Notes: a model not told the origin generated them from the sequence alone. A stretch of DNA of 64,000 nucleotides from Candidatus Parcubacteria bacterium (GCA_027324805.1 DAHVRZ010000001.1:2945-66944); one strand, 5' to 3'; shown: positions 1,503-52,489, numbered from the stretch's first letter. Program-made: numbers and translations.

Positions 1503-3077
1503 ATGGCGAAAAAAGTCATGGTGCTCGTCGTGCTCGACGGATGGGGCATCGGCAGAAACGACGAATCGAATCCGATTTATGTGACGAAGCCGCAGACGTT
1601 CGCACATCTCGACGCGACCTACCCCGTAACGAGCCTGCAGGCTTCGGGTATTTCGGTCGGTCTGCCATGGGGCGAGGTCGGCAACAGCGAAGTGGGGCAT
1701 CTCACGCTCGGTGCCGGCAAGGTGCTCTATCAGTATTATCCGAAGATCACCATGGCGATCAGCGACGGATCGTTCTTCCAAAATAACGTACTGAAGGACG
1801 CCTGCGCCCACGCGCGCGCGACGGGCGGCGCAATCAATTTCGCCGGACTCCTTTCGAAAGGCAACGTTCATGCGTCGCTCGAGCATCTCCTTGCCCTTAT
1901 AAAAATGGCGAAGGGTGAGGGCGTGCCGCACATCAATCTCCATCTTTTCGCCGACGGCAAGGATGTTGCGCCGCACACGCTCGAGGGATATCTCCGCGAA
2001 CTGCCGAAGGAACATCTCGCCACGCTCATCGGACGCTATTATGCAATGGATCGCGAGGGTAACTGGTCGCTCACGGAGACCGCATACCAGCTCATGACCG
2101 GCATGGGCGGCATCGGCAAGCCTGCGGAGAACGCCGATGCGACGGCGATCATCGAGGAGAGCTGTAAGGGAGGGCAGACCGAAGAATATCTTCCGGCGAT
2201 ACGCTTCGTGGACGGCACCGGTGCCGGCGCCACGGACCACGGGCACGTAAAGGACGGCGACTCCCTCTTTTTTTTCAACTACCGCGAGGACAGCATCCAG
2301 CAGCTCGCATCCTCATTCATTCTCCCGGACTTCAATAAATTCACCGTCATGCCGTTCAGAGATCTGCACGTGGCGACGATGACGCATTACAATGACGCGT
2401 TCAACGTACCGGTCGCCTTCCCCGCCGATACCGTAGAGAACCCGCTCGGCAAAGTGCTCTCCGATGCCGGACTTACCCAACTCCGCCTTGCGGAGACGTA
2501 TAAATACGCGCACGTCACCTACTTCTTCAACGGCTACCGCGAGCCGCCCTATCCCGGAGAGTTCCGCACGCTCATTCCCTCCCTCACCGAGCTTCATCCG
2601 GAACAACATCCGGAGATGATGGCGGGTGCGATCACCGATCGGCTCATCGAGGCGATCCGCGACCGCGCGTTCGATTTCATTCTCGTGAACTATGCGAACG
2701 GCGACACCATCGCGCACACGGCCGACTATCAGGCATCGCTCGCAACGGTGAAAGTGATTGACCGCGAGATAGGACGCCTGCTCGCCGCCGTTGGCGACGA
2801 TCAGGACACGATCATCGCCATCACCTCGGACCACGGCCACATCGAATCGATGATTGACGAGGCGACCGGCCTTCCAAGAAGCCAGCATGCCCCGAATCCG
2901 GTCCCCTTCTATCTTGTCGCTCCCCAGATCAAGGGCCGGCGCTTCGTGAACGCCGATAATCTCACGCAAGAGATGCTCGGCTCTCTCGCCGACGTCGCTC
3001 CCACACTCCTCGCGCTCATGGGACGCCCCGCACCCGCCGACATGACGGGCCGCAGCATCCTGGACGGACTCATTTAG
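1503..3077 (+). CDS. gpmI: 2,3-bisphosphoglycerate-independent phosphoglycerate mutase (iPGM), copy 1
   Basis: 524 aa. VLVVLDGWGIG...GNSEVGHLTLGAGKV and the C-terminal TSDHGH metal-binding region are typical of iPGM. Extended -10 TGaTATACT lies about 8 nt upstream of the ATG. Confidence 0.92.
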   Translation: MAKKVMVLVVLDGWGIGRNDESNPIYVTKPQTFAHLDATYPVTSLQASGISVGLPWGEVGNSEVGHLTLGAGKVLYQYYPKITMAISDGSFFQNNVLKDACAHARATGGAINFAGLLSKGNVHASLEHLLALIKMAKGEGVPHINLHLFADGKDVAPHTLEGYLRELPKEHLATLIGRYYAMDREGNWSLTETAYQLMTGMGGIGKPAENADATAIIEESCKGGQTEEYLPAIRFVDGTGAGATDHGHVKDGDSLFFFNYREDSIQQLASSFILPDFNKFTVMPFRDLHVATMTHYNDAFNVPVAFPADTVENPLGKVLSDAGLTQLRLAETYKYAHVTYFFNGYREPPYPGEFRTLIPSLTELHPEQHPEMMAGAITDRLIEAIRDRAFDFILVNYANGDTIAHTADYQASLATVKVIDREIGRLLAAVGDDQDTIIAITSDHGHIESMIDEATGLPRSQHAPNPVPFYLVAPQIKGRRFVNADNLTQEMLGSLADVAPTLLALMGRPAPADMTGRSILDGLI

Positions 3078-7509: not shown

Positions 7510-9522
7510 ATGACAATCAGAAAAAATGAACATCAGACCGACGGTGTGCCGAGGAACGAAGATCGCCCCCGCACCCGACCGACGCCGCCGCCGATAAGGC
7601 CGCGGCCCGCGCGCACCCCCCTGCCTCCGCGGCCTTCCAACCCGCATTCTGCGGGCGGTGGGCCGAGCGGGAATGGCCCGCGCCCCTCGAACCCGCGGAC
7701 CGCTACAGGCGGACCGCGCCGCGGCGGCCAACGCCCTCCTATGGGAGGCGGCAATCGCGGCAGCATGCCTCCGAGGCACTCGGAGTCTTCCGTCGCATCC
7801 CACCGCAACAAAATGGGACCTCATCCGATGGTCGCGCCGGACGCGCGCGCAAAGGCGGATCCCGACGCGGTGCGCCTCGTGCCGCTCGGCGGCCTCGAAG
7901 AGATCGGGCGCAACTGCTCGTTCCTCGAATATAAGAACGAGATCATCATTATTGATATGGGCCTGCAGTTCCCCGAAGAGGAAACGCCGGGCATTGATTA
8001 CATCATCCCAAACACGCAGTACCTCGAAAAACATAAAGACAAAATCCAGGGGATCATCCTCACCCACGGCCACTACGACCACATCGGCGCCCTGCCGCAC
8101 GTTCTCGCGCGGCTCGGCAATCCCCCGATCTATGCCACGTCAATCACGAACGCCATCATCGAGAAGCGCCAGGATGATTTCCCGAACGCACCCAAAATGA
8201 AAGTGCAGATCGTGAAAAGCGGCATGGAGCTCAAGCTCTCGCAGAACTTCACGGCGCTCTTCTTCGGCGTGCCGCATACGATCCCGGAGACGACGGGCGT
8301 GATGCTCAAAACCCCGATCGGCAACATTGTGCACTTCGCCGACTTCCGCCTCGACTACGACGATGAAGGCAATCCGCACGGGCTCGAAGAATTCGAGAAG
8401 CTCGGCAAGATGGGCGTCCATACCTTCATGGTGGACAGCACCGCCGCGGAACGTCCCGGACATTCGGTCTCGGAGAAGACGGTGGAGAAGAACCTTGAAG
8501 AGATCTTCCGCGCAGCGGAGGGCCGCATCGTCGTCGCCACGTTCGCGTCGCTCATCACGCGCATCGCGGAGATCATGAAGATCGCGGAAAAGCTCGGCCG
8601 CAAGGTGGCCCTCAATGGCTACTCAATGAAGACAAACATCCAGATCGCCCAGGGACTCGGCTTCGTGAAAGTGAGGCCCGACACCATGATCCCGATCGAG
8701 GAAGTGAACAAGCTTAAAGACAACAAGGTGATGATCCTTTCGACGGGCGCGCAGGGCGAATCGAATGCCGGCCTCATGAAAATCATCAACGGCGAGCATC
8801 GCCACGTGAAAATCAAGAAAGGCGACACATTTGTGCTCTCTTCATCGGTCATCCCGGGCAACGAGCGCAGCGTACAAACGGTGAAGGATAACCTCGCCCG
8901 CCAGGGCGCGATCGTCTTCCACTCGGCGCTCGTGGACATCCACTCGTCCGGACACGCACCGAAAGGCGACATCAAGCTCGTGATCGAACTTCTCAAGCCC
9001 AAGTTCCTCATGCCGGTGCACGGCTATTACTTCATGCGCTCCGCGAACGGGATCACCGCGCGCGAAGCCGGCGTCCTGCCGGACAATGTGCGCCTGATGG
9101 ATAACGGCCAAGTGGCCGAGCTCACCAAAGATTCGTTCACAATCACCAAAGAGGAAGTCCCCGCATACTACGTGATGGTGGATGGCATCGGCGTGGGCGA
9201 CGTGGAAGAGGTCGTACTCCGCGACCGGCGCACGCTCGCCGCCGAAGGCATGATCGTGATCATCCTCACGATGGACCGCGACAAGGGCCGGCTCATCAAG
9301 AACCCGGACATCATCTCGCGCGGCTTCATCTACCTCAAGGAGCATCAGGATATCCTCGACGAGATCCGCAAACGCATCCGCTCGCTCCTCCAGCGCATCC
9401 CGAACTATCGCGACGTTGAAGCGGATTACATCAAAACGCTCGTACGCGACCAGGTCGGACAGTACCTCTATACGAGGACGAAGCGCCGGCCGATGATATT
9501 GCCGGTGATCATCGAGATCTAG
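7510..9522 (+). CDS. rnj: Ribonuclease J (MBL/beta-CASP), with a 100-aa Pro/Arg/Gly-rich N-terminal low-complexity extension (start uncertain; alternative ATG near 7813)
   Basis: Conserved RNase J core begins VRLVPLGGLEEIGRNCSFLEY...ILTHGHYDHIGALP (MBL HxHxDH motif). The first about 100 codons encode PRPRTRPTPPPIRPRPARTPLPP... with third-position GC still high, consistent with coding. Confidence 0.85.
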   Translation: MTIRKNEHQTDGVPRNEDRPRTRPTPPPIRPRPARTPLPPRPSNPHSAGGGPSGNGPRPSNPRTATGGPRRGGQRPPMGGGNRGSMPPRHSESSVASHRNKMGPHPMVAPDARAKADPDAVRLVPLGGLEEIGRNCSFLEYKNEIIIIDMGLQFPEEETPGIDYIIPNTQYLEKHKDKIQGIILTHGHYDHIGALPHVLARLGNPPIYATSITNAIIEKRQDDFPNAPKMKVQIVKSGMELKLSQNFTALFFGVPHTIPETTGVMLKTPIGNIVHFADFRLDYDDEGNPHGLEEFEKLGKMGVHTFMVDSTAAERPGHSVSEKTVEKNLEEIFRAAEGRIVVATFASLITRIAEIMKIAEKLGRKVALNGYSMKTNIQIAQGLGFVKVRPDTMIPIEEVNKLKDNKVMILSTGAQGESNAGLMKIINGEHRHVKIKKGDTFVLSSSVIPGNERSVQTVKDNLARQGAIVFHSALVDIHSSGHAPKGDIKLVIELLKPKFLMPVHGYYFMRSANGITAREAGVLPDNVRLMDNGQVAELTKDSFTITKEEVPAYYVMVDGIGVGDVEEVVLRDRRTLAAEGMIVIILTMDRDKGRLIKNPDIISRGFIYLKEHQDILDEIRKRIRSLLQRIPNYRDVEADYIKTLVRDQVGQYLYTRTKRRPMILPVIIEI

Positions 9523-9523
9523 C

Positions 9524-9550
9524 AAAAACCGCCCCTACGGGGCGGTTTTT
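9524..9550. terminator. Bidirectional rho-independent terminator between convergent rnj and histidine phosphatase genes
   Basis: AAAAACCGCCCC-TAC-GGGGCGGTTTTT: perfect 7-bp GC stem flanked by an A-tract and a T-tract. Confidence 0.85.
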
Positions 9551-10209
9551 GTATTCTCCTCGGCGAGGTGGGCGTGGTCGTTGTAGATCCATACATTCCA
9601 CCTCGACCCTTCGCCGGATTTTTTTTCGCGGTATCGCAGGACGGTGAGTCCTGTGTTCTCCGTCTCCGACATTTTCTGGAATCTCCTGAACGCCTCGCCC
9701 GAGAGCAGATCGCCAAGCAGGATGCGCGCCGTGAGCGCGCGGAGGAAATAGCCATGGGTCACGACAAGCACCGACCGTTCCGGCCTTTCCTCGAGGAACA
9801 CCATCGCCTTTTCCGCGCGGGCCATGATGTCGTCGAAATTCTCTCCGTCCGCCACGCGCACCCCGGGCGTGTAGAGCGTCTCGTTCCACTCCCGCCAGAG
9901 CCTTGCCGCCTCTTCGTCGGTATGCGGGCTGCCGTTCACCCTTGCGGGCTTCATCCGCTCCACAAAAAGCGCCGATTCCTCCGGCCGCTTCCCCGTCGCC
10001 TTGGCGATCGCTTCCGCAGTCTCCGCGGCGCGGCGGTACGGGCTCGTTATGAACGCCTCGAAGGCGATGCTCCGCGCCCGCGCGGCGATCATCTCCGCCT
10101 GCTTCCGACCGCGGTCGCTGAGCGGCGAATCCGGCGACTGGAAGACGGGCGACACATTGTCCGCACTCTCCCCATGCCGCACGAAGTAGACTGTTTTCGC
10201 GGTGGACAT
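9535..10209 (-). CDS. Histidine phosphatase family protein (phosphoglycerate mutase-like branch)
   Basis: 224 aa. RHGE catalytic motif (VYFVRHGESADN), second motif SPYRRAAETA, C-terminal VVTHG catalytic His. Leaderless-type promoter (TGGTATGAT) just upstream. Confidence 0.85.
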   Translation of the reverse strand: MSTAKTVYFVRHGESADNVSPVFQSPDSPLSDRGRKQAEMIAARARSIAFEAFITSPYRRAAETAEAIAKATGKRPEESALFVERMKPARVNGSPHTDEEAARLWREWNETLYTPGVRVADGENFDDIMARAEKAMVFLEERPERSVLVVTHGYFLRALTARILLGDLLSGEAFRRFQKMSETENTGLTVLRYREKKSGEGSRWNVWIYNDHAHLAEENTKTAP

Positions 10210-11264: not shown

Positions 11265-14200
11265 TTAAATCTTCCTAAGGCCGATCCAGGCCTCCTGCCC
11301 TTCCATCTTTGCCGTTTCTTCGGCAAGGAATTTTTCTCCGTGTTTGTATTCGACGCGCGCGGCGCCGATCTCCGTCATGAATATCTTTTCATTGTGCACG
11401 AGGGCCTGTGCCGCTTCCGCCGGCAGTGACGCCATCGCGATGATCTTGTCCCTCGGCGAAAGTCCCGCCTTCTGGCGCAGTTCCTGGAACATGCGCACCG
11501 CTTCCCGGAGGAGGCCCTCCCGGCGAAGTTCCGGCGTGATCACAGTATCGAGCACCGGCTCCTTCGCTTTCGCGTTCACGATCACTTTTTTCACATTCAC
11601 TTCTTCCGCAAGGATCGCCTCAAGCTCTTTGCTTAATTTCACATTCACCGTGACCGAAGCGAGCGGCTGGCGAACCTTGATCCCCGCCTCCGCGCGCTTC
11701 GCGAGGCCCGCGGCCGCCGATTCCCGCACTACCGCCATTTCCGCAATTAGCTTTTTGCCTGCCGCGGGGAGTTTTGGCGCCTTGGGCCATGTTTCAAGAT
11801 GGACCGACTCCTTCATACCGCCGAGCGCGGCGTAGAGCCCTTCGCTCATGAACGGCGTGAATGGCGCCATCATTGCGACGACAGAGAGGAGGGTATGGCG
11901 AAGCGTCGCCGATGCGGCCTTATGATCCGCAGCGGTCGTCGGTTTTTGAAGACGGCGGCGCGAACGGCGGATATACCATCGGGAAAGATCATCCACGATC
12001 GCATCGAGCTCAAGCGCCGCTTCCCGGATCTCATAGCGGTCGAGTTTCGCCGTTACGGACGCCGCCGTTTCATCGAGCCGCGCGAGGATCCAGCGGTCGA
12101 GCACATTCTTCGGGTTCGCCTTCCGGCCGGCAACCGCAGGCGCGAGCTTCGCCCCCCTGTCCGCATACGTCTTCCAGAACACGAATGAGTTATAGACGAT
12201 GAGATGGGTGCGGCGGAACGCTTTTGCAATCTCGTTCTCGTCGAAATTCTTCGGCTCGCCGAACGGCGAACCGGTATAGAAGTACCAGCGGACGGCGTCC
12301 ACGCCGTATTTATCAATCACCGCAAACGGCTCCACGATATTACCCTTCGACTTCGACATTTTTTTGCCGAACTTGTCATTGATGAGACCGAACGTGATCA
12401 CATTGCGGTACGGCGCTTTGTGGCCGAGCGCGGTCGCGATCGCCATGAGCGTATAGAACCACCCGCGCGTCTGGTCCATGCCTTCGGCAATGTAATCCGC
12501 GGGATATTCGAGGCCGGACAGCGTTTTTATATTCGTCTTCGGAAGGGAGAAGGGATAATGGGCCTGCGCATAGGGCATCGCGCCGGAATCGTACCAGACG
12601 TCCGCCACCTCGCGCACACGCCTCATCGTCCCATGGGCGTTCTTTTTTGCGCACGCGGCACACGGGAATGCGATCTCGTCCACGAAAGGCCGATGGAGAT
12701 CAACTTCGCCGCTATCGTTGCGCGGCACGGTTTTCAGATGGAGTTCGCGCACATCGGCAAATCCGATGAATGCGCCTTTTTTTTCTTTGGCGCCGCGCTT
12801 CTCCATCTCTTCGATCGCACGCTTCTCGCTCCACCCTTCGGCCGTCTGGAAGAGCGCCCAGGCAGGATACTCATGAGTCACGACCAGGATGTTCTTTCCT
12901 TCATATTGCTTCTCGCAATCCTCAAGGAACTTCCATACTCGCGAACGTACGTCGCGCACCGACTCGCCTCCTTCGGGACGCTTCTCAAAGCGCGATTCGA
13001 GCGTCGGGAAGAATTCGCGGTACTTCTCGTCACGGAGACCCGTAAGCGACGGGCCAAGATGGATCTCTTCGAGCCGCTTATCGGCCGTACATTCCTTCGC
13101 CGGCACGCCGAGCTCCTTCATCGCAATCTCTGCGGTCTCGGACGTGCGCTCGATGTCGGAATGGATGATGAGGTCGATCTTCTCCCTCCTCTTCTTGAGC
13201 GCCGCCGCGAATGCCTTTGCCGACCGGGCGGCCTCTTTCTTTCCGCGCGGAGTGAGCTTGAGATATTTACGCTGGCCGGAATCGAGGATATCGAAAATGT
13301 TGCTCTCCGCCTCGCCATGGCGCATCACCCAGTAGCGGTTCTTGGAACCGCCCGCAAGCTGCGAAAGTTCGTCCATGCTCCCCACCACCTCCTTGTGACC
13401 GCACCCGGCGCATTCCCATACCGGCAGAGGCGCGCCCCAGTAGCGTTCGCGCGAGAGGTTCCAATCCTTCACTTCCCGGATCCATTCGCCGAAGCGGCCC
13501 TTCTTTACGTGGGCCGGCATCCAGTTCACGGAGGCGTTGTTCGCCTGAAGCTCTTTGCGCAGCCTGGACATTGCGATGAACCACGAGGTGCGCGCGTAAT
13601 AAAGCACCGGCGTACCGCACCGCCAGCAGAACGGATATTCGTGTGCGTACGGTTCCGTGCGGAGGAAATTACCGTGCGCTTTGAGATGCTCGAGCACCGC
13701 CTGTTCGGTCTCCTTCGCCTTGGCGTACATGCCCGCAAGCATCGGCACGTCCTTTGTGAACTTACCCTCGTCATCCACGGTATGGTGTTCCGGCAGGCCC
13801 TCCTTCTTTCCAAGCGCGTAGTCGTCCTCGCCATACATCACGGCCGTGTGCACCACGCCCGTGCCGTCGGTCGTCGTCACGAACGACGCCGGATATACCT
13901 TGTATGATTTCGGCGATCTCAATTTCTCCACATCGAAGAGCGGCTCGTATTCAAGGCCGACGAGCTGTTCGCCTTTCACCGCCCAAAACTTTCCCGCGCC
14001 TTCCAGTCCGAGACTCGCGATCCGATCCGTTGCCGCAATCAGATATTCGTCCCCGACCTCCACCGCGCGATACTCGATCTTCGGCCCGACCGCGAGCGCC
14101 ACGTTGCCCGGCAAGGTCCACGGCGTCGTCGTCCACGAAAGGATGTATATCGTATCGGAGGGCTGTATGACGTGGCTTCCGATCTTCTGCCCCGGCTTCA

Positions 14201-14882
14201 GTTTGAACTTCACATATACCGACGTATCGGTCACTTCCTGGTAGCCCTGTGCGAGCTCGTGCGACGAAAGCGCGGTTCCGCATCGGGTACACCACGGCAC
14301 CACCTTGTGGCCTTTATAGAGCAGATCGCGCTTTGCGAGCCGGGACAGGCTCCACCAGATGGATTCGATGTATTCCGGCGCGTAGGTCACGTACGCGTTC
14401 TTGAGATCCAGCCAATAACCGATGCGGCGGGTCATGCGCTCCCACTCGTCTTTATAGATCCAGACTTGCTCCTTTGCAGCCTCGTTGAACCTCTTGATGC
14501 CATATTGTTCGATGTCGCGCTTCGTTTTGAAGCCGAGCGCTTTTTCGGCAGCCATCTCGACAGGAAGGCCGTGCGTATCCCATCCCGCCCGGCGCGGAAC
14601 ATGGTATCCCTGCATGGTCTTGTAGCGAAGGACGACGTCTTTAACGACGCGGGAGAGCACGTGATGGATGCCGGGCTTGCCATTCGCATACGGAGGCCCT
14701 TCGTAAAACACGAACTCCTTCGAACCCTTCTTCTTCGCGAGGGATTTCTCGAAAATATGCCGCTCATCCCAGAATGCGAGCACTTTTTCTTCCGTACCGG
14801 GAAGATTGAATCCGTCACCGAGGAAATCGGGCGCACTTTTGGATGAAAGTGGCACTGCTTTACGTCGCTGTTTTTTGGGCAT
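11265..14882 (-). CDS. ileS: Isoleucyl-tRNA synthetase (type 2-like) carrying an inserted histidine-phosphatase domain
   Basis: 1205 aa. HHVLSR(HIGH-like)...KMSKS. CP1 editing domain present. Zn-knuckle region WECAGCG ... FPCAACAK is interrupted by about 210 aa (approx residues 513-722; nt approx 12717..13346) with an intact RHGE, SDIERTSETA and VVTHEY histidine-phosphatase signature. Confidence 0.9.
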   Translation of the reverse strand: MPKKQRRKAVPLSSKSAPDFLGDGFNLPGTEEKVLAFWDERHIFEKSLAKKKGSKEFVFYEGPPYANGKPGIHHVLSRVVKDVVLRYKTMQGYHVPRRAGWDTHGLPVEMAAEKALGFKTKRDIEQYGIKRFNEAAKEQVWIYKDEWERMTRRIGYWLDLKNAYVTYAPEYIESIWWSLSRLAKRDLLYKGHKVVPWCTRCGTALSSHELAQGYQEVTDTSVYVKFKLKPGQKIGSHVIQPSDTIYILSWTTTPWTLPGNVALAVGPKIEYRAVEVGDEYLIAATDRIASLGLEGAGKFWAVKGEQLVGLEYEPLFDVEKLRSPKSYKVYPASFVTTTDGTGVVHTAVMYGEDDYALGKKEGLPEHHTVDDEGKFTKDVPMLAGMYAKAKETEQAVLEHLKAHGNFLRTEPYAHEYPFCWRCGTPVLYYARTSWFIAMSRLRKELQANNASVNWMPAHVKKGRFGEWIREVKDWNLSRERYWGAPLPVWECAGCGHKEVVGSMDELSQLAGGSKNRYWVMRHGEAESNIFDILDSGQRKYLKLTPRGKKEAARSAKAFAAALKKRREKIDLIIHSDIERTSETAEIAMKELGVPAKECTADKRLEEIHLGPSLTGLRDEKYREFFPTLESRFEKRPEGGESVRDVRSRVWKFLEDCEKQYEGKNILVVTHEYPAWALFQTAEGWSEKRAIEEMEKRGAKEKKGAFIGFADVRELHLKTVPRNDSGEVDLHRPFVDEIAFPCAACAKKNAHGTMRRVREVADVWYDSGAMPYAQAHYPFSLPKTNIKTLSGLEYPADYIAEGMDQTRGWFYTLMAIATALGHKAPYRNVITFGLINDKFGKKMSKSKGNIVEPFAVIDKYGVDAVRWYFYTGSPFGEPKNFDENEIAKAFRRTHLIVYNSFVFWKTYADRGAKLAPAVAGRKANPKNVLDRWILARLDETAASVTAKLDRYEIREAALELDAIVDDLSRWYIRRSRRRLQKPTTAADHKAASATLRHTLLSVVAMMAPFTPFMSEGLYAALGGMKESVHLETWPKAPKLPAAGKKLIAEMAVVRESAAAGLAKRAEAGIKVRQPLASVTVNVKLSKELEAILAEEVNVKKVIVNAKAKEPVLDTVITPELRREGLLREAVRMFQELRQKAGLSPRDKIIAMASLPAEAAQALVHNEKIFMTEIGAARVEYKHGEKFLAEETAKMEGQEAWIGLRKI

Positions 14883-15016
14883 TATCCCTATAAATTAGCA
14901 GATTTTCCGCTTATTTTCCACGTCGCCAGAGAAACGGCCGCAACATGGGCGAATAAAAAATGCCTCGCATCGACGAACGATGCAAGGCAGATGACCTCCA
15001 ATAATCCCGCGACGGA

Positions 15017-15415
15017 TCATTCCGACACGACGAAGATCGATCCTTCGATTTTTGTGATGCGCTCGATGGCGGACCTCGGGATGGCGATCTTGTACGGCAC
15101 ATCGGCGAAGCCGCGTCCTTTGAGCACTACCGCAACGACGGGCTGCATTCCTGCCACCTTCCGGAGCAGGCGGACGGGAAGTGGCGGATGGATCCGAACC
15201 TTCCACCCCTTATTCAACATCAGGGCCTTTCCTGCTCCCGGAAGGAACGCTTCCTTCGGAACCTTGATACCCCCGATGCGGCACACACCCGGATCGGCGA
15301 AATTCGGCTGTTCCCAGAACGTTATCTCGCGCGTGACCATCTCGATGACGGACACCCTCCGCGCCGGCCGAACACTTTCGATGCCGGCCACGCCTACCAA
15401 CGTCAAATCGGCCAT
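15017..15415 (-). CDS. Hypothetical protein (conserved position between argS and ileS)
   Basis: 132 aa from the ATG preceded by a strong SD (GGAGGGGG, short spacer). The longer ORF to 15469 lacks an RBS. No recognisable motif. Confidence 0.5.
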   Translation of the reverse strand: MADLTLVGVAGIESVRPARRVSVIEMVTREITFWEQPNFADPGVCRIGGIKVPKEAFLPGAGKALMLNKGWKVRIHPPLPVRLLRKVAGMQPVVAVVLKGRGFADVPYKIAIPRSAIERITKIEGSIFVVSE

Positions 15416-15480
15416 ATACCCCCTCCGCAGGCCGCCGCATATCGGCGGTTCACTGCCTGGAAAGAGCATACCGTGGGACG

Positions 15481-17280
15481 CTATATCTTTTCAAGTGTGA
15501 CGATGCCGAGAAGACCGAGGCCCGTACGTAAAATATCCGCAGCTGCGGAAGCAAGCGCAAGGCGGGCCGCGCGCCGTTCGGTATCCTCATCCTTCAGGAT
15601 CGGCGTCGTCTCGTAGAATTTGTTCGCCGCGACGGCGAGCTTGTAGCAATATGCCGCGACGGCGCTTGGCGCGAGGCGCGCCGCCGCGCGCGCAACGATA
15701 TCAGGGAATTCCGCCATCCTCCTGATGAGCGCGAGTTCGCTCTCCGTGCCGATCTTCCCGGTGGCCGCACCGCCATCAATGCCGTTTGCAATGGCTCTTT
15801 CCACGTCACTATCAAATTCTTCGCGTGCCTTCCGTAAAATGCTTCGCAAACGCGCATAGGCATACTGGAGATACGGACCCGCATCTCCTTCGAATGAAAG
15901 GGATTTTTCAAAATCAAAAACGATGTCCTGTCCCGGATTCTGCTTGAGTATCGAATATTTTATCGCGCCGACCGCGATCGCCTCGGTCGCCGCCGCCCTC
16001 TCTTCTTCGCCGAGCGCGCTCCGCTCGCTCACCTTTTCCGCGAGGCGCTCCTTAACCTGACCGAGGAGCGCTTCCGCCGTGATCACGTCGCCGGTACGCG
16101 ATGACATCTTCCCCGTCGGTAGACGGAGCATCCCGTGGGGCATGTGCCGCGTGCGCTCCGCCACTTCCGGAGGCAAGACGAGCGACATCACCGCAAGAAG
16201 CACCCTGAAATAATCCACGATCTCGTTCCCGGTTACGACAACGGAAAGATCGAGCGGATACTCCTCGAACTTCTTCTTATTGAGGCCGAGCTCTTTCGCT
16301 TCGTACGTCGGAAGTCCCCGCGAGTTCACGAACACGCGCGTGTGAAGGCCGTACTTTTCTCCGGGAAACACCACCGCGCCGTCGCTCTTTTCGAATATCC
16401 CTCTCCCAAGGCCGTCATCCACCACATCGAGGCCCGGCGATGCCATTTCGCTTTCGAAATAATAGCGTTCGAACTTCGTGCCGAGGCGCGCATACAGCAT
16501 CTCGAAATATTCAAGGCTCCACGCGCGGCCGGCGGCGTACAATCCGTTCACTTCATCGTTCTTCTTCGCATAGATCTCCTCGTTCAAGGCATCGATCTCG
16601 CCCCGCGTCTCGAGCCCATCCTCATATGCCCGCGCGCCGTATGCGTACGCTTCGCCAAGGAATGCCATTTTGAGGCCAATATCATCGCCTTCGCCCGGCA
16701 TCACTTTTCCGATTCGCCGCATCCCCCACACCGCTTTCGCAACGTGGAGCCCGACATCGCCTTGATAGTTTGCACGGATCACCTTCGCACCCGCCGCCTC
16801 GTAGAGGCGCGCAAACGATTCGCCGATCGTATTGCTCATAAGATGACCTATGTGAAACAGTTTGAACGGATTAGGATCGGTGAATTCGACCATGACGGCC
16901 TTCCCCTTCATGCCATCGTTCGTGCCGTATACCGAACCGCCGTGGGCGCCGCGCCGCACCGCGACCGCGATCGAGGCGAACTCCATGCGCCACGCATCGT
17001 CGCTCATCCAAAAATTCACGAAACCCGGGGCGGCCGCCTCTGCTTTTTCGAAGAATCCTGCCGGTGCCGATACTCGCACCTTCTCCGCGATCTCCGCTGC
17101 GAGATCCATCGGTTTCATGCCGCGTTCCTTTGCAAACCGCATCGCCGCGTTCGTGGAAAAATGGCCTTGCGTTGCGGCGTCGTCAGGTACCGATAGCTCC
17201 CCTGCCGGCGCTGCGTTTCCGGCAATGCCGAGGGCTTCTTCCACCATCCCGGCGATTTTTGCTTTCATGGACATCTCCAT
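15481..17280 (-). CDS. argS: Arginyl-tRNA synthetase
   Basis: Class I HIGH motif (LFHIGHLMSNTIGES) and DALK-type anticodon-binding domain. Start placed at the MEMSMK cluster (17280/17274/17268); the upstream 34 codons of the ORF lack support. Confidence 0.88.
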   Translation of the reverse strand: MEMSMKAKIAGMVEEALGIAGNAAPAGELSVPDDAATQGHFSTNAAMRFAKERGMKPMDLAAEIAEKVRVSAPAGFFEKAEAAAPGFVNFWMSDDAWRMEFASIAVAVRRGAHGGSVYGTNDGMKGKAVMVEFTDPNPFKLFHIGHLMSNTIGESFARLYEAAGAKVIRANYQGDVGLHVAKAVWGMRRIGKVMPGEGDDIGLKMAFLGEAYAYGARAYEDGLETRGEIDALNEEIYAKKNDEVNGLYAAGRAWSLEYFEMLYARLGTKFERYYFESEMASPGLDVVDDGLGRGIFEKSDGAVVFPGEKYGLHTRVFVNSRGLPTYEAKELGLNKKKFEEYPLDLSVVVTGNEIVDYFRVLLAVMSLVLPPEVAERTRHMPHGMLRLPTGKMSSRTGDVITAEALLGQVKERLAEKVSERSALGEEERAAATEAIAVGAIKYSILKQNPGQDIVFDFEKSLSFEGDAGPYLQYAYARLRSILRKAREEFDSDVERAIANGIDGGAATGKIGTESELALIRRMAEFPDIVARAAARLAPSAVAAYCYKLAVAANKFYETTPILKDEDTERRAARLALASAAADILRTGLGLLGIVTLEKI

Positions 17281-17473
17281 TTTTGTTTGATATAACATGG
17301 ACGGGGAGCACGCAGGATGATCGTACGGCGGCAGCCATCTCTCGTCCTCGTCCTGAAGACGAATGCCTCCGTGCCCTGCCACTCCCCTTTATTTTCTTGA
17401 GGATACCTTAAAAACGGGGCCCTCACAATGATACAGAACCCGTTGTCGCGGGTTTTTCATCTATAATGAACCT

Positions 17474-26929: not shown

Positions 26930-28246
26930 ATGAACATAAAAACCATTCGCGCGCGGCAGATCCTTGATTCGCGCGGCAACCCAACCGTGGAGGCGGACGT
27001 TATTTTGGAAAACGGCGCAACGGGACGCGCGGCGGTCCCTTCCGGCGCTTCGACGGGCAGCCACGAGGCGATCGAACTTCGCGACGGCAATCCAAAACTC
27101 TACGGAGGGAAGGGCGTATTGAACGCGGTGGCGAACGCACAAAGCGAGATTGCGGCCGCGGTCACCGGCATGGATGCCGAGGATCAGAAAGCGCTCGACG
27201 AAAAGATGATCGCGCTCGACGGCACTCCGAACAAATCGCGGCTTGGCGCGAATGCGATCCTCGCGGTCTCGCTTGCATCCGCCAAAGCGGCGGCGGCGGC
27301 GAAGGGCGTCCCTTTTTTTGAGCACGTGAACGGACTCGGACGTGCGGCTGGCATCGCCGATGACGGCGGCGGCGCGACGCTTCCCGTGCCGATGATGAAC
27401 ATCATAAACGGCGGCAGGCACGCGGCCGGTTCGACCGATATCCAGGAATTCATGATCATTCCCGCCGGAGCGACGACATTCTCCGATGCGCTCCGCATGG
27501 GCACCGATATTTTCCATGCATTGAAGAAAGTGCTCGCGGGCAAGGGCTATGGCACGACGGTCGGCGACGAAGGCGGCTACGCGCCATCCGTAAAAGGAGG
27601 CAACGCCGAAGCGCTCGACCTTATCGGCGCAGCCGTATCCGCCGCAGGCTACACGCTCGGCACGGACGTCATGCTCGCGCTCGATGTTGCGGCATCGGAA
27701 CTCCGCGATCCTTCCTTTAATAACGGCGCCGGCGGCTATCGCCTTGCCACCGAAGACCGCTCGCTCTCGACCGACGAGATGATCGCCTGGCTCAAAGCGC
27801 TCGCAGAGAAATATCCGATCGCCTCCATCGAGGACGGCCTCGGCGAGGACGACTGGGCCGGATGGACCTCGATGACCGCCGCCATCCCACGACAGCTCGT
27901 CGGCGACGATCTCCTTGTTACGAATACCGAATTCCTTTCGCGCGCCATCGGCGAAAAGGCGGGCAACGCGATCCTCATCAAGCCGAACCAGATCGGCACG
28001 CTCACCGAAACGATCGCCGCGATAAAAATGGCGAAAGATGCGGGCTGGCGCACCATCATTTCTCACCGCTCCGGCGAAACGGAGGATGTGACGATCGCCC
28101 ACCTTGCCGTCGGGCTCGGCACGGGACAGATCAAGACCGGCTCGCTCTCGCGCACCGACCGCGTGGCGAAATACAACGAACTGCTCCGCATCGAAGAGAC
28201 TCTCGGCGCAAAAGCAACCTATCCCGGCAAGAAGATTTATGGATAA
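26930..28246 (+). CDS. eno: Enolase (phosphopyruvate hydratase)
   Basis: [25 protein letters not shown]-terminus. TATACT hexamer 6 nt upstream of this ATG (the ORF also has ATGs at 26924 and 26867). Stop overlaps the gpmI copy 2 start (ATGGATAA). Confidence 0.92.
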
Positions 28247-29825
28247 GATCAGGCCCGTAGCCCTGATCATCCTCGACGGCTGGGGTCACCGGGAAGACGC
28301 CTCTCATAACGCCATCGCCAAAGCACGCACGCCCTTCTTTGATTCGCTCCTTGCGCGCTATCCGCACACGCTTCTCGACGCGAGCGAGGAATACGTCGGC
28401 CTGCCGCACGGCCAGATGGGCAACAGCGAGATCGGCCATATGACGATGGGGGCCGGACAGGTCATTGACGTCGATCTCGTGAAGATCAACAAGGCCGCCG
28501 AGCACGGAGCATTTTCGACGAATCCCGCTTTCACCGAGCTCTTCGACCATGTGAAACGCCACGATGCCACCCTGCATGTGATGGGGCTTGTCGGCACGGG
28601 CGGCGTACATAGCCATCAGAACCATCTTCATGCATTCCTCCGCGCCGCGAAAGCGACAGGTATAACGAAGGTCGCCGTTCACGCAATTACCGATGGGCGC
28701 GATCTTCCTCCGCAAAGCGCCGCAAACCATCTCCGCGAACTCGAGGCGCTCCTCGCCGATCTCGGCATCGGCTTCATTGCCACCATGGGCGGCCGTTTCT
28801 ATGCCATGGACCGCGATAAGAACTGGGACCGCGTCGGGAAGGCCGAAGCGGCGGTCTTTGAAGGCAATGCTGCCCGGCGCGAATCCCGCACGCCGTCCGC
28901 AGTACTCGAAGAGTTATATAAAGAGGGCGTGATGGATGAACACCTTGAACCGGTCGTATTCCTCGACGGCATCGGCAGGAATGGAGCGGCGGGCGACGGG
29001 GGTGCAGCGTGGACGATCGGCGCGCACGACGGCGTTTTCTTCTTCAACTTCCGCCCCGACCGGGCACGCCAGATGACGGAGCGGTTCCTTGCGCACAGGA
29101 ATCCGCTCGATCTCTTCATTGTCACGCTCACCGAATACGACAAAACGCTCACTGCCGCCGGCGCTCACGTGGCATTCCCGCAAAGCCGTGCCACAACCTC
29201 GCTTGCAGCTGAGATCGCGGCCGGCGGACTCACGCAGGCGCACATCGCCGAAACGGAAAAGTATGCGCATGTCACCTATTTTTTCAATGGAGGCAACGAA
29301 GCGCCGCACAAGGGCGAACGATTCTATCTTATCGAGAGCCGCAAAGACGTTGCAACGCACGACCTTGCGCCCGAAATGCGAGCAAAGGAGATCGCGGATA
29401 CGGCAATCGAACGTATCGCCGCAGGTGATGATTTTCTCGTGGTGAATTTCGCGAACGCCGATATGGTCGGCCATACGGCAAACCGTCCGGCGATCGTGGC
29501 CGCGGTGGAAACCGTGGACCTCGAACTCCGGCGCATCGTGGATGCCATCCTCGCGCGCACCGGCGCGGCGATCGTAACGGCGGACCATGGCAATGCGGAA
29601 ATGAACAGAGATCCCGAGACCGGCGCACGCCACACCGCACATACCACGAATCTCGTCCCTTTTGTCGTCGCGTCAGACAACCCATTATTACATCTCCGTA
29701 CACGCGGCAGGACTGATGCCGGTCATGAAGCGTCAGGCACACTCGCCGATATCGCACCCACCATCCTCCATCTTCTCGGTCTTCCTGTTCCCGAAGGCAT
29801 GACGGGAAGAAACATGATCGAATAA
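28239..29825 (+). CDS. gpmI: 2,3-bisphosphoglycerate-independent phosphoglycerate mutase (iPGM), copy 2, translationally coupled to eno
   Basis: [20 protein letters not shown]...[15 protein letters not shown]. Roughly 35-40% identical to copy 1 by eye. Start ATG overlaps the enolase stop. Confidence 0.9.
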
Positions 29826-37579: not shown

Positions 37580-37589
37580 TCCGGGACTG

Positions 37590-37901
37590 TGGAGACGGGC
37601 GGAGTCGAACCGCCGTGTAATGATGGTGACGTGGGCCGTCTACGGGCGTAGTCTAAACGAGTTTAGGCAGAAATGGTCCTAGGTTCTCGCCCTGCGCATA
37701 GGGCCGTCTGCGCGAGGCCAGTCTCCTTGTATAAGACCGGTATCAGCTCAAGAGACCCGAACTGGCCGATCCCGAACTAGGCGAAAGCGAAGCTCGGAGC
37801 TGCAACTTTGGAGTTGGCAGTTATAGATTGTGCGGCGATTACGTCGCCGCCATCGGCCCGCAAACCCACGGAAGATCATTATCGAAGCCGGGTGCGTCCC
37901 C
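37590..37901 (-). ncRNA. ssrA: tmRNA (SsrA), standard one-piece form
   Basis: 5' GGGGACG pairs with 3' CGUCUCC-A, including the G3:U70 wobble (alanine identity). 3' tRNA-like T-arm GGCGG-UUCGACU-CCGCC. Internal tag reading frame GCC AAC UCC AAA GUU GCA GCU CCG AGC UUC GCU UUC GCC UAG gives (A)ANSKVAAPSFAFA*. 5' region GGGGACGCACCCGGCUUCGAUAAUGA resembles E. coli GGGGCUGAUUCUGGAUUCGAC. smpB present at 17474. Confidence 0.85.
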
Positions 37902-52414: not shown

Positions 52415-52489
52415 TGGTGCTCCCGCGTGGAATCGAACCACGATCACCTCCTTCGGAGGGAGATATTCTATCCATTGAACTACGAGAGC
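52415..52489 (-). tRNA. tRNA-Arg (anticodon CCG), CCA encoded
   Basis: Acceptor GCUCUCG/CGGGAGC (one G:U). Anticodon stem UCUCC/GGAGG with loop CUCCGAA. T-arm CGUGG-UUCGAUU-CCACG. 3' ACCA present. Confidence 0.85.

What the first reader, a model, noticed from the sequence alone, without database searches (positions are those of the whole stretch)
11265..14882. Isoleucyl-tRNA synthetase with a complete histidine-phosphatase domain inserted into its catalytic core
Seen in sequence: the 1205-aa IleRS is about 200 aa longer than usual. The extra segment (about residues 513-722; nt about 12717..13346) lies between the conserved type-2 IleRS elements EVVGSMDELSQLAGGS and VDLHRPFVDEIAFPCAAC. It carries all three histidine-phosphatase (PGM/cobC-branch) signatures: RHGE, SDIERTSETA, VVTHEY. 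The catalytic machinery therefore looks intact rather than decayed. A stand-alone paralogous histidine phosphatase (9535..10209) sits next to trpS 1 kb away. A phosphatase embedded in an aaRS suggests a coupled activity on the tRNA 3' end, for example removal of a 3'-phosphate or 2',3'-cyclic phosphate before charging. I am not aware of a described IleRS with this insertion.
Basis: partly seen in the sequence, partly recalled or inferred. Interest (0 to 1): 0.8.

Follow-up and report, generated by a model that had tools for sequence, protein, structure and literature searches.

The report
Active phosphatase nested inside IleRS
The enzyme that loads isoleucine onto its tRNA in this candidate-phyla (Patescibacteria) bacterium has a complete, apparently active phosphatase folded into one of its surface loops; in hundreds of relatives the same phosphatase family is either built into that enzyme (at four different places) or encoded right beside it, which points to an unrecognised partnership whose chemistry is still unknown.

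Summary
ORF 11265..14882 (-) encodes a 1205-aa type-2 IleRS. In it, 218 residues (509-726) replace a 9-residue loop between the two Cys pairs of the CP3 zinc knuckle. The insert is a canonical branch-1 histidine phosphatase (PF00300, E=2e-28; AlphaFold pLDDT 94.7).

It is not an artefact. All 120 closest homologues, from independent assemblies, share the architecture.

- Among 275 near-full-length Patescibacterial IleRS, such modules sit at four different sites (A, A', B, C), with up to three per protein.
- The catalytic Arg-His/Arg/Glu/His set is intact in 276 of 279 modules.
- The closest free-standing relatives (7 of 7 examined) are encoded directly beside ileS, usually as argS-phosphatase-ileS. 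The window has argS-ileS with the phosphatase inside.
- One relative carries a non-homologous HAD phosphatase instead.

So this is a dedicated, active IleRS-partner phosphatase. Placement varies, the modules are capped and often acidic, and all characterised relatives act on small molecules. The substrate is unknown.

A one-sentence mention exists for SR1 bacteria (Kantor 2013). I found no characterisation.

The parts
11265..14882 (-). ileS: type-2 isoleucyl-tRNA synthetase, 1205 aa, with a nested histidine-phosphatase domain
   Evidence: ORF. TIGR00392 858 bits, PF00133, PF08264, PF19302. Full-length AlphaFold model pLDDT 93.9, pTM 0.88. Foldseek TM 0.92 to 1ILE, normalised to the target.
13359..14882 (-). 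IleRS residues 1-508: first half of the Rossmann fold, CP core, CP1 editing domain, CP2, and the first half of CP3
   Evidence: Aligns with T. thermophilus IleRS 9-478. Coordinates checked.
14661..14672 (-). Signature motif GIHH (residues 71-74), the non-canonical G/AXHH version of HIGH
   Evidence: Sequence. Aligned to HVGH of T. thermophilus IleRS. The motif class is described in PMC10485003.
14115..14132 (-). CP1 editing-site Thr-rich peptide TTTPWT (residues 251-256)
   Evidence: Invariant in the 106-sequence alignment A2.
13401..13412 (-). First Cys pair of the CP3 zinc knuckle (C491, C494)
   Evidence: Aligns with the CQAC of T. thermophilus IleRS. CP3 zinc motif per PMC7191050. Coordinates.
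12705..13358 (-). Inserted segment, residues 509-726: short linkers plus the complete branch-1 histidine phosphatase (site A)
   Evidence: Replaces T. thermophilus IleRS residues 479-487. PF00300 E=2e-28 at 518-688. AlphaFold pLDDT 94.7, pTM 0.92 on its own. Foldseek probability 1.0 to histidine phosphatases.
13311..13322 (-). RHGE motif: R521, nucleophile H522, G523, E524
   Evidence: R, H and G invariant in 82 sequences. R/H present in 169/169 site-A modules.
13146..13148 (-). R579, second phosphate-binding arginine
   Evidence: Invariant.
13065..13067 (-). E606, putative general acid/base
   Evidence: E in 165 and D in 4 of 169 site-A modules.
12873..12875 (-). H670, second catalytic histidine
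   Evidence: Invariant.
12651..12662 (-). Second Cys pair of the CP3 zinc knuckle (C741, C744)
   Evidence: Sequence and alignment.
11268..12704 (-). [quoted passage not shown]
   Evidence: Aligns with T. thermophilus IleRS 488-821. PF08264 and PF19302. Coordinates.
15481..17382 (-). argS, directly upstream of ileS on the same strand. This is the conserved neighbour that frames the free phosphatase gene in related genomes.
   Evidence: ORF. argS-ileS or argS-phosphatase-ileS order in loci L001-L003, L005-L008, L011, L014, L016, L018, L020, L021.

Best explanation
The gene encodes one working protein: a type-2 IleRS of the G/AXHH class with an autonomous, catalytically competent branch-1 histidine phosphatase nested in the loop of its CP3 zinc knuckle.

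SHOWN:
- The IleRS parts are complete: GIHH, KMSKS, the editing motifs and the anticodon domains are present, and the body superposes on solved IleRS.
- The insert folds as a separate domain joined by short linkers.
- Its Arg-His/Arg/Glu/His catalytic set is under strong purifying selection.
- This phosphatase subfamily is almost exclusively tied to IleRS in Patescibacteria. [quoted passage not shown] Otherwise it is encoded as a separate ~190-aa gene wedged between argS and ileS.

INFERRED:
- The module is a dedicated partner of IleRS that hydrolyses a phosphomonoester through a phospho-His522 intermediate.
- Because it works from four placements and also in trans, fusion serves 1:1 co-expression and co-localisation and not a precise active-site-to-active-site channel.
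- Its substrate is more likely a small diffusible phosphorylated molecule than the tRNA 3' end. My leading guess is a nucleotide-type by-product or competitor of the adenylation reaction.
- The substrate itself is not identified.
For: - Domain identity and integrity.
- Intact synthetase around it.
- Recurrence: 120/120 closest homologues. 105 of the 150 best 50%-identity cluster representatives found with the insert alone are IleRS with the module in the N-insert-C arrangement.
- Four insertion sites, with 1-3 modules per protein, in 256 of 275 IleRS analysed.
- Catalytic pentad intact in 169/169 (A), 20/22 (A'), 23/24 (B) and 64/64 (C) modules, although the insert is the least conserved region overall (52% against 70% mean identity to the query).
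- Free relatives beside ileS in 7 of 7 cases: six directly upstream, from a 13-nt overlap to a 10-nt gap, and one convergent. argS is directly upstream in five.
- The same argS-ileS frame surrounds the embedded forms, including the window.
- A non-homologous HAD phosphatase at site B in an IleRS that lacks His_Phos (P0337).
- Small-molecule leaning: the nearest characterised sequence and structure relatives are all small-molecule phosphatases or mutases. The HAD stand-in is the capped HAD-IA type. Modules at A', B and C are acidic on average.
- It is not the cell's glycolytic mutase: the window already encodes two cofactor-independent PGMs, and no dPGM equivalog cut-off is reached.
Against:
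- No IleRS-specific small phospho-substrate is known, so the 'why IleRS' question stays open.
- Patescibacteria fuse many small enzymes to another tRNA-related gene, YrdC/Sua5 (MGMT domain, TruB, His_Phos, 2H phosphodiesterase, GNAT, Nudix, a DNA glycosylase). IleRS itself also hosts unrelated inserts (DUF559, IS200-like, GNAT, P-loop kinases). Part of the pattern may therefore be lineage-wide fusion promiscuity.
- The HAD-replacement argument rests on a single protein.
- The 275 proteins were retrieved with insert-bearing queries, so the counts are not prevalence estimates.
- The orientation of the pocket relative to the tRNA path could not be measured.
- The high pTM (0.88) hints at a fixed rather than floppy placement, which would also suit a cis-acting role.
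Confidence: 0.55

Rival explanations
1. tRNA end healing in cis. [quoted passage not shown]
For: - The module sits in the catalytic body of a tRNA enzyme, in CP3 next to the second half of the Rossmann fold.
- The full-length model is rigid-looking (pTM 0.88).
- Other inserts in related IleRS, or fused to the tRNA-related YrdC, include P-loop kinases and 2H cyclic phosphodiesterases, the enzyme types used in RNA end healing.
- Toxins that pyrophosphorylate the tRNA CCA end are known (my own knowledge, not tested here).
Against: - No histidine phosphatase is known to act on RNA ends, and all nearest characterised relatives use small substrates.
- The module is capped.
- It occurs at four separate sites and as a free protein, so no single geometry toward A76 is conserved.
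- Modules at A', B and C are acidic on average.
- The kinase inserts match only generic small-molecule kinases, weakly, not polynucleotide kinase.
- The HAD replacement is the capped small-molecule type, unlike the capless HAD of T4 polynucleotide kinase/phosphatase (plus my own knowledge).
- There is no reason why only tRNA(Ile) would need repair.
Confidence: 0.17
2. No mechanistic coupling. A housekeeping small-molecule phosphatase has merely been fused to, or parked beside, an essential, steadily expressed gene, as part of a general tendency of streamlined Patescibacterial genomes to merge small enzymes with essential ones.
For: - YrdC/Sua5 in the same lineages is fused to a similar assortment of unrelated small enzymes.
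- IleRS of Gracilibacteria and Peregrinibacteria carries GNAT, DUF559, IS200-like, hydrolase and kinase inserts.
- CP3 is a known structurally variable, permissive subdomain.
Against: - The association is far too specific and persistent. Of the 150 best relatives of the insert, 105 are inside IleRS, one is on YrdC, and the free ones tested are 7/7 beside ileS.
- The same domain family has been placed at four sites, up to three times in one IleRS.
- It is retained with intact catalysis down to about 30% module identity.
- A different phosphatase fold fills the slot in P0337.
Confidence: 0.2
3. Protein-directed or regulatory phosphatase. The module removes phosphate from IleRS itself or from a partner protein (SixA- or PGAM5-like). 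One possible purpose is to reverse inactivating phosphorylation by kinase toxins; in some relatives it would be paired with the inserted P-loop kinases.
For: - The N-terminal part hits the SixA model weakly (TIGR00249, 30 bits).
- Modules at sites A', B and C are small (about 165-175 aa of insertion), close to SixA size.
- Kinase inserts co-occur in a few IleRS.
Against: - The SixA cut-off (74.5 bits) is not reached.
- The window's module has a cap.
- Kinase inserts are rare.
- There is no evidence for IleRS phosphorylation in these organisms.
Confidence: 0.05
4. Artefact or dead passenger: an assembly chimera, a frameshifted neighbouring gene, an intein-like or mobile insert, or a decayed domain kept only as a structural spacer.
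For: A few related IleRS carry domains typical of mobile elements (IS200-like Y1 transposase, DUF559 endonuclease).
Against: - The reading frame is uninterrupted and the composition uniform.
- An identical protein is found in two records.
- 120/120 homologues from independent assemblies share the architecture.
- No intein or endonuclease family hit in the protein.
- Catalytic residues are invariant.
- The fold is confident in isolation and in context.
Confidence: 0.01

Closest known systems
SR1 (Absconditabacteria) 'unusual isoleucine-tRNA synthetase' noted by Kantor et al. 2013 (PMC3812714)
   Same: An IleRS of a candidate-phyla bacterium interrupted by phosphoglycerate-mutase-family (= His_Phos_1) domains. 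It belongs to the same phenomenon as the multi-module IleRS found here (P0264, P0267, P0278, P0281).
   Different: That protein was described as split by a Nudix domain plus two PGM domains. The window has a single module at another site (A, inside the CP3 zinc knuckle). The paper gives one sentence, with no sites, no distribution and no function.
NCBIfam NF040702 'isoleucine--tRNA ligase, N-acetyltransferase domain-containing' (ileS_w_GNAT)
   Same: A curated precedent for an IleRS carrying an extra enzymatic domain. GNAT inserts co-occur with His_Phos modules in Gracilibacteria and Peregrinibacteria IleRS.
   Different: The window protein scores 313 bits against a cut-off of 1999, so it is not a member. 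It has no GNAT domain.
Hyper-mupirocin-resistant IleRS2 with the non-canonical G/AXHH signature motif (Brkic et al. 2023, PMC10485003)
   Same: The window IleRS is type 2 and has GIHH in place of HxGH. Most site-A relatives have G/A-x-H-H.
   Different: The characterised enzymes (Deinococcus, Streptomyces, engineered P. megaterium and T. thermophilus) have no nested phosphatase. Resistance of the window enzyme is untested.
Bifunctional proteins that pair a branch-1 histidine phosphatase with another catalytic domain: mycobacterial Rv2228c-type RNase H/acid phosphatase (NF005567), MutT1 Nudix + histidine phosphatase (NF052459), PFK-2/FBPase-2, Sts/UBASH3 (2H + PGM)
   Same: The same phosphatase fold and catalytic residues are joined to a second enzyme. 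NF005567 is the best non-synthetase NCBIfam hit of the insert (66.5 bits). The Nudix + His_Phos pairing recalls the SR1 IleRS.
   Different: Those are end-to-end fusions, whereas here the phosphatase is nested inside a loop of the partner's catalytic body. No cut-off is reached for any of these families. What I say about MutT1, PFK-2/FBPase-2 and Sts comes from my own knowledge.
Lineage-specific nested modules of class Ia synthetases (CP1 editing domain, CP2/CP3, the LeuRS leucine-specific domain, the IleRS2 INS subdomain)
   Same: These are domains inserted into surface loops of the Rossmann-fold body without disrupting it. CP3 is variable between IleRS.
   Different: The known modules bind tRNA or edit aminoacyl products. 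None is a phosphatase of an unrelated superfamily with free-living relatives.

Membership tests
Isoleucyl-tRNA synthetase (TIGR00392 ileS) | Whole-protein HMM score above the curated cut-off | tested here: met
   857.9 bits against a cut-off of 621.4, matched in two stretches around the insert.
Isoleucyl-tRNA synthetase (TIGR00392 ileS) | Class I signature motifs (HIGH-type and KMSKS) and CP1 editing motifs | tested here: met
   GIHH (non-canonical variant) at 71-74, KMSKS at 841-845, TTTPWT at 251-256, GTGVVH at about 340-345. The editing residues are invariant in A2.
Isoleucyl-tRNA synthetase (TIGR00392 ileS) | Overall IleRS fold, including the type-2 C-terminal domains | tested here: met
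   Model pLDDT 93.9. Foldseek TM 0.92 to 1ILE, 0.91 to 6LDK and 0.81 to 8C8V, normalised to the target. PF19302 present.
Isoleucyl-tRNA synthetase (TIGR00392 ileS) | Isoleucine-specific aminoacylation of tRNA(Ile), and being the cell's only IleRS | not testable with these tools
   This needs an enzyme assay. Only 64 kb of the genome is available, and no second ileS lies in it.
IleRS2 with non-canonical G/AXHH motif (mupirocin hyper-resistant class, PMC10485003) | Gly/Ala at position 1 and His at position 3 of the signature motif, in a type-2 IleRS | tested here: met
   GIHH aligns with HVGH of T. thermophilus IleRS. Definition.
IleRS2 with non-canonical G/AXHH motif (mupirocin hyper-resistant class, PMC10485003) | Millimolar Ki for mupirocin | not testable with these tools
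   Requires enzyme kinetics.
Histidine phosphatase superfamily, branch 1 (PF00300) | HMM score above the gathering threshold | tested here: met
   99.8 bits against 21.7, E=2e-28, residues 518-688.
Histidine phosphatase superfamily, branch 1 (PF00300) | Catalytic core: RHG nucleophile motif, second Arg, Glu acid/base, second His | tested here: met
   R521, H522, G523, R579 and H670 are invariant, and E606 is at least 90% conserved in 82 sequences. The pentad is intact in 169/169 site-A modules.
Histidine phosphatase superfamily, branch 1 (PF00300) | Alpha/beta fold of the superfamily | tested here: met
   AlphaFold pLDDT 94.7. Foldseek probability 1.0, E=1e-13 to 6S2Q, then 4IJ5, 4PZ9, 1H2E and BPGM.
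Histidine phosphatase superfamily, branch 1 (PF00300) | Phosphatase activity via a phospho-histidine intermediate | not testable with these tools
   Needs an assay of the wild type against H522A.
Cofactor-dependent phosphoglycerate mutase (dPGM; NF038349, TIGR01258 and related equivalogs) | Equivalog score above the cut-off | tested here: not met
   dPGM_arch 52.9 against 225; pgm_1 25 against 81.7; GpmB 36 against 261. The window also encodes two cofactor-independent PGMs.
Alpha-ribazole phosphatase CobC (TIGR03162) / phosphoserine phosphatase PspA (NF045917) / SixA (TIGR00249) | Equivalog score above the cut-off | tested here: not met
   51.8 against 162.9; 47.8 against 350; 30.3 against 74.5. 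The free relatives also fall below every cut-off.
RNA end-healing 3'-phosphatases (T4 Pnkp-type HAD, bacterial Pnkp, 2H phosphoesterases) | Homology to one of those folds | tested here: not met
   Only His_Phos families match the insert. This excludes membership. It does not exclude an analogous activity.
Intein / homing or mobile in-frame element | Hint/intein or endonuclease domains and splice-junction residues | tested here: not met
   No such Pfam or NCBIfam hit in the protein. The junctions are GGSKN|RYW and NDSGE|VDLH. The insert is a metabolic-type enzyme with free-living relatives.
NF040702 ileS_w_GNAT | Score above the cut-off, GNAT domain present | tested here: not met
   313 bits against 1999, and no GNAT hit.

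The most novel reading that the evidence does not exclude
In Patescibacteria, IleRS is a modular platform. Its nested phosphatases (with the GNAT, Nudix, kinase, HAD and hydrolase inserts seen in sister lineages) form a built-in defence or repair kit that acts at the isoleucine-charging step. One version is destruction of aminoacyl-adenylate-mimicking antibiotics at their target. Another is reversal of toxin-made modifications of the tRNA CCA end, such as 3'-(pyro)phosphorylation. The natural G/AXHH 'hyper-resistance' motif in the same enzymes would be part of the same arms race.
Probability: 0.12. Interest if true: 0.9.

Novelty: new variant of a known kind. Interest (0 to 1): 0.66.

Why it matters
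Aminoacyl-tRNA synthetases are among the best-studied enzymes. Their extra domains are normally tRNA binders or editing modules. Here an unrelated, catalytically intact phosphatase has been joined to IleRS again and again across a very large, uncultured bacterial radiation: at four loops, in up to three copies, as an operon partner, and once replaced by a different phosphatase fold. That pattern means some phosphate-removing step matters for isoleucine charging (or for IleRS itself) in these organisms, and no textbook step of the reaction calls for one. Identifying the substrate could reveal a new side reaction, by-product, inhibitor or tRNA lesion connected with IleRS. It could also help explain how ultra-small symbiotic bacteria keep translation running. 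The system is directly testable with one recombinant protein and a His522 mutant.

Tried and rejected
1. Assembly chimera or frameshift: rejected.
2. Recent duplication of the neighbouring stand-alone phosphatase (9535..10209): rejected. It is only 28% identical and scores lower than the argS-ileS-linked free forms against every embedded module.
3. The module as the cell's glycolytic dPGM: rejected. No equivalog cut-off is met and the window holds two iPGM genes.
4. Intein or mobile element: no supporting domains.
5. Remnant of a free phosphatase gene in the 598-nt argS-ileS spacer: none found by tblastn or HMM.
6. Regulatory RNA near ileS: Rfam finds only a tmRNA and one tRNA elsewhere in the window.
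7. Substrate clue from structure: Foldseek gives only generic family members at 20-24% identity.
8. Substrate clue from co-inserted domains: NCBIfam hits of the kinase, HAD, GNAT and hydrolase segments are weak and generic.
9. Neighbour-joining tree of 152 modules: too poorly resolved to count insertion events or set the direction (free to nested, or the reverse). It shows only that the genuine free proteins cluster together among site-A modules.
11. Measuring the orientation of the phosphatase pocket relative to the tRNA path: impossible, because model coordinates are not exposed to the sandbox.
12. Literature: five searches for prior descriptions found only the Kantor 2013 sentence. A 2026 survey of IleRS architecture does not mention these inserts.

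Full report
**1. The observation**

The ORF at 11265..14882 on the minus strand is uninterrupted and encodes 1205 residues. G+C across the proposed insert (0.56-0.62) does not differ from the flanks.

The protein passes the curated IleRS equivalog model (TIGR00392, 858 bits, cut-off 621), matched in two pieces. It also carries PF00300 His_Phos_1 at residues 518-688 (E=2e-28), the anticodon-binding domain PF08264 and the type-2 C-terminal domain PF19302.

Against T. thermophilus IleRS (1ILE), query 26-508 aligns with residues 9-478 and query 727-1068 with residues 488-821. So 218 residues (509-726, nt 12705..13358) replace a nine-residue loop. The loop lies between the Cys pairs C491/C494 and C741/C744. 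[quoted passage not shown] It carries a zinc motif in the Thermus enzyme and has a different topology in each solved IleRS (PMC7191050).

**2. It is real and recurrent**

All 120 best homologues (57-100% identity, 1103-1267 aa; NCBI, JGI, ENA and Logan assemblies) combine PF00133 with PF00300. The few that carry source names are called Candidatus Paceibacterota, Parcubacteria or 'Patescibacteria group'. An identical 1205-aa protein is on a second record.

An exhaustive HMMER search with the insert alone (residues 505-735) against 1.84 billion cluster representatives gave 3070 hits at E<=1e-3. Of the best 150:
- 76 are IleRS with the order N-part, insert, C-part.
- 29 are IleRS fragments with the insert.
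- 43 are short proteins without an IleRS flank.
- One is a YrdC/Sua5 fusion.

A chimera or frameshift is excluded.

**3. The domain is intact**

On its own, with an 82-sequence alignment, the insert is predicted with pLDDT 94.7 and pTM 0.92. Foldseek places it among branch-1 histidine phosphatases with probability 1.0. The top hits are mycobacterial hydrolases 6S2Q/6S2R, PspA 4IJ5, Rv2419c 4PZ9, PhoE 1H2E and BPGM, at 20-24% identity.

R521, H522, G523, S575, R579, E640 and H670 are invariant. E524, E582 and E606 are at least 90% conserved. Yet the insert as a whole is the most variable part of the protein: 52% mean identity to the query, against 70% for the N-terminal catalytic part.

The synthetase around it is also intact:
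- GIHH, KMSKS, the Thr-rich editing peptide and GTGVVH are present, and the editing residues are invariant in a 106-sequence alignment.
- The model of residues 21-1205 has pLDDT 93.9 and pTM 0.88, with no disordered segment.
- It superposes on 1ILE (TM 0.92 normalised to the target), 6LDK (0.91) and P. megaterium IleRS2 (0.81).

**4. The same domain at four sites**

Two long hits, P0264 and P0267, have an uninterrupted loop at the window's site. They carry modules elsewhere instead. I mapped every insertion of 90 residues or more in 275 IleRS of at least 1000 aa onto the insert-less core. Histidine-phosphatase modules fall at four positions:

| Site | Position | Modules |
|---|---|---|
| A | Between the CP3 Cys pairs (the window's site) | 169-172 |
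| A' | Just after the second Cys pair | 20-22 |
| B | Between 'HYPF' and 'ADxIAEGxDQTRGWF' | 24 |
| C | Between the end of the catalytic/stem-contact part and the anticodon-binding domain | 57-64 |

By module count, 235 proteins have one module, 19 have two, 2 have three (P0278, P0281), and 10 relatives have no large insertion at all.

The catalytic pentad (Arg, His, Arg, Glu/Asp, His) is intact in 169/169, 20/22, 23/24 and 64/64 modules at the four sites.

Named members of the multi-site group are Gracilibacteria, Peregrinibacteria and Peribacteria. P0267 is seen on six contigs, one of 1.06 Mb.

These proteins were fetched with insert-bearing queries, so the counts describe diversity and not prevalence.

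**5. The free form is an ileS neighbour**

The closest free-standing relatives (187-201 aa, 35-44% identical to the insert) were looked up in their contigs. In 7 of 7 cases the gene lies beside ileS.

| Locus | Arrangement |
|---|---|
| L014 | argS-hp-ileS, gaps 2 and 4 nt |
| L016/L017 | argS-hp-ileS, gaps 3 and 1 nt |
| L015 | hp-ileS, gap 10 nt |
| L019 | hp-ileS, 13-nt overlap |
| L020 | argS-hp-ileS, 11-nt overlap |
| L021 | argS-hp-ileS, 3-nt gap |
| L018 | argS-hp, followed by a convergent ileS |

 The partner ileS in L016 is 931 aa and matches TIGR00392 in one unbroken stretch (903 bits), so it has no insert.

Conversely, in the window and in eight of eleven fetched loci with the nested form, argS lies directly upstream of ileS with no free phosphatase gene between them. 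The window's 598-nt spacer holds no detectable remnant of one.

So there is one conserved frame (argS ... ileS), and the phosphatase is either a separate cistron in it or inside ileS. A quick neighbour-joining tree puts the genuine free proteins together, among site-A modules, but it is too weak to give a direction.

**6. Other inserts and a caution**

Related IleRS also carry other domains:
- GNAT domains
- P-loop kinases (AAA_18/AAA_33)
- A serine hydrolase
- DUF559 endonuclease domains
- IS200-like domains

In P0337, tandem HAD phosphatase domains sit at site B and there is no His_Phos. That is a different fold with the same chemistry in the same slot.

As isolated segments, these inserts match only generic small-molecule enzyme families. 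The HAD is HAD-IA type and resembles phosphoglycolate phosphatase, PpaX and YjjG. The kinases give weak nucleotide/metabolite-kinase hits. The GNAT is RimI-like.

The caution is that YrdC/Sua5 of the same bacteria is fused at its C-terminus to many small enzymes. These include an MGMT-type domain in most hits, TruB, His_Phos in four clusters, 2H cyclic phosphodiesterases, GNAT, Nudix and a DNA glycosylase. Fusion promiscuity is therefore a lineage trait and must be counted as a rival explanation.

**7. What it most likely does**

Shown:
- An intact IleRS.
- An intact, autonomously folding phosphatase.
- A subfamily-level, long-lived and repeatedly re-created association with IleRS.

Inferred:
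- The phosphatase is a dedicated IleRS partner.
- The module functions from four placements and in trans, so the benefit of fusion is probably stoichiometric co-expression and proximity, not a fixed channel.

Four points favour a small phospho-substrate over the tRNA end:
- Every characterised relative uses small substrates.
- The model has a two-helix cap.
- The HAD stand-in is a capped type (with my own knowledge of HAD cap classes).
- Modules at A', B and C are acidic on average, with net charge -2.4 to -4.5.

It is not the glycolytic mutase, because two iPGM genes lie in the window and no dPGM cut-off is met.

I cannot name the substrate. A nucleotide-type by-product or competitor of adenylation is my leading guess. 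It is prompted by the YrdC fusions (another adenylate-forming enzyme) and by the Nudix partner reported for SR1.

**8. Comparison with what is known**

The only description I found is one sentence in Kantor et al. 2013. [quoted passage not shown] Four other targeted searches found nothing. A 2026 preprint on IleRS domain architecture does not mention phosphatase, GNAT or Patescibacteria.

Databases do register the architecture. Pfam annotations are precomputed, JGI names such as 'isoleucyl-tRNA synthetase/phosphohistidine phosphatase SixA/...' exist, and NCBI has a model for a GNAT-bearing IleRS.

The enzyme also belongs to the IleRS2 class with the non-canonical G/AXHH motif, which is linked to mupirocin hyper-resistance (PMC10485003).

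I rate it a new variant of a known kind: synthetases with accessory domains. It has been seen in passing but never analysed. The multi-site recurrence and the argS-hp-ileS operon form appear not to have been reported in the literature I could search.

**9. Verdict**

- Observation: confirmed.
- Interpretation: partly supported. The domain is intact and a functional tie is likely; the specific tRNA-end mechanism is unsupported.
- Interest: 0.66. An aaRS specialist would be surprised by the scale and persistence of the association, and one recombinant protein would make it testable. However, the substrate is unknown, and a lineage-wide habit of fusing small enzymes tempers the inference.

Noticed in passing
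window 14661..14672 (-): The IleRS signature motif is GIHH, not HxGH. This is the natural non-canonical G/AXHH motif that Brkic et al. 2023 tie to mupirocin hyper-resistance in IleRS2. In alignment A2, 81 of 106 sequences have G/A-x-H-H and 25 have H-x-G-H.
   Followed up: partly
window 9535..10209 (-): A stand-alone His_Phos_1 protein (224 aa, E=3e-34) lies between RNase J and trpS. It is only 28% identical to the nested module and belongs to another subfamily than the argS-ileS-linked free forms. Its function is unknown.
   Followed up: partly
window 1503..3077 (+) and 28104..29825 (+): Two paralogous cofactor-independent phosphoglycerate mutases (iPGM_N + Metalloenzyme) lie within 27 kb. 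That is unusual redundancy for a small genome.
   Followed up: no
window 14883..15480: The 598-nt argS-ileS spacer holds a 150-aa ORF (15017..15469, -) with no Pfam hit. A strong terminator-like hairpin follows it (14989..14961, 12-bp stem plus a T run), only about 80 nt before the ileS start. L001 has a spacer of similar length.
   Followed up: partly
window 7510..9522 (+): The RNase J-like ORF starts with an N-terminal extension of about 120 residues rich in Pro, Arg and Gly, ahead of the conserved body. The RNase J-trpS-ileS-argS order is conserved in L001.
   Followed up: no
window 37587..37901 (-) and 52418..52489 (-): A tmRNA (RF00023, 111.7 bits) and one tRNA are the only Rfam matches in the window.
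   Followed up: no
window 14856..14882 (-): The IleRS begins with a short basic extension (MPKKQRRKAVPL...). The start is uncertain: the 100%-identical database proteins are annotated as 1196 aa (P0001) and 1205 aa (P0512).
   Followed up: no
proteins P0214, P0359, P0289, P0302, P0303, P0352, P0353 (related IleRS): Some Patescibacterial IleRS contain domains typical of mobile or selfish elements nested in frame: an IS200-like Y1 transposase inside the CP1 region, DUF559 endonuclease at site A', and Zeta-toxin-like kinase domains. Proteins reach 1859 aa (P0331).
   Followed up: partly
proteins P0218, P0393-P0509: Patescibacterial YrdC/Sua5 (t6A synthesis) is fused at its C-terminus to a variety of small enzymes: an MGMT-type DNA-binding domain in most, plus TruB, His_Phos, 2H cyclic phosphodiesterase, GNAT, Nudix and a methylpurine DNA glycosylase.
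   Followed up: partly
L012 5797..10651; L004; L010: In a MAG labelled Clostridia, an ileS gene is followed two ORFs later, on the same strand, by a His_Phos gene. MAGs labelled Gammaproteobacteria (L004) and Saccharibacteria (L010) carry site-A IleRS. This means either wider distribution or mislabelled or contaminated bins.
   Followed up: no
window 41794..43554 (-) and 50925..52364 (-): A family-X DNA polymerase with a PHP domain (PolX-type) and a TruD pseudouridine synthase lie in the window. Neither showed nested extra domains, and neither did any other large ORF checked. Within this window the nesting is peculiar to ileS.
   Followed up: partly
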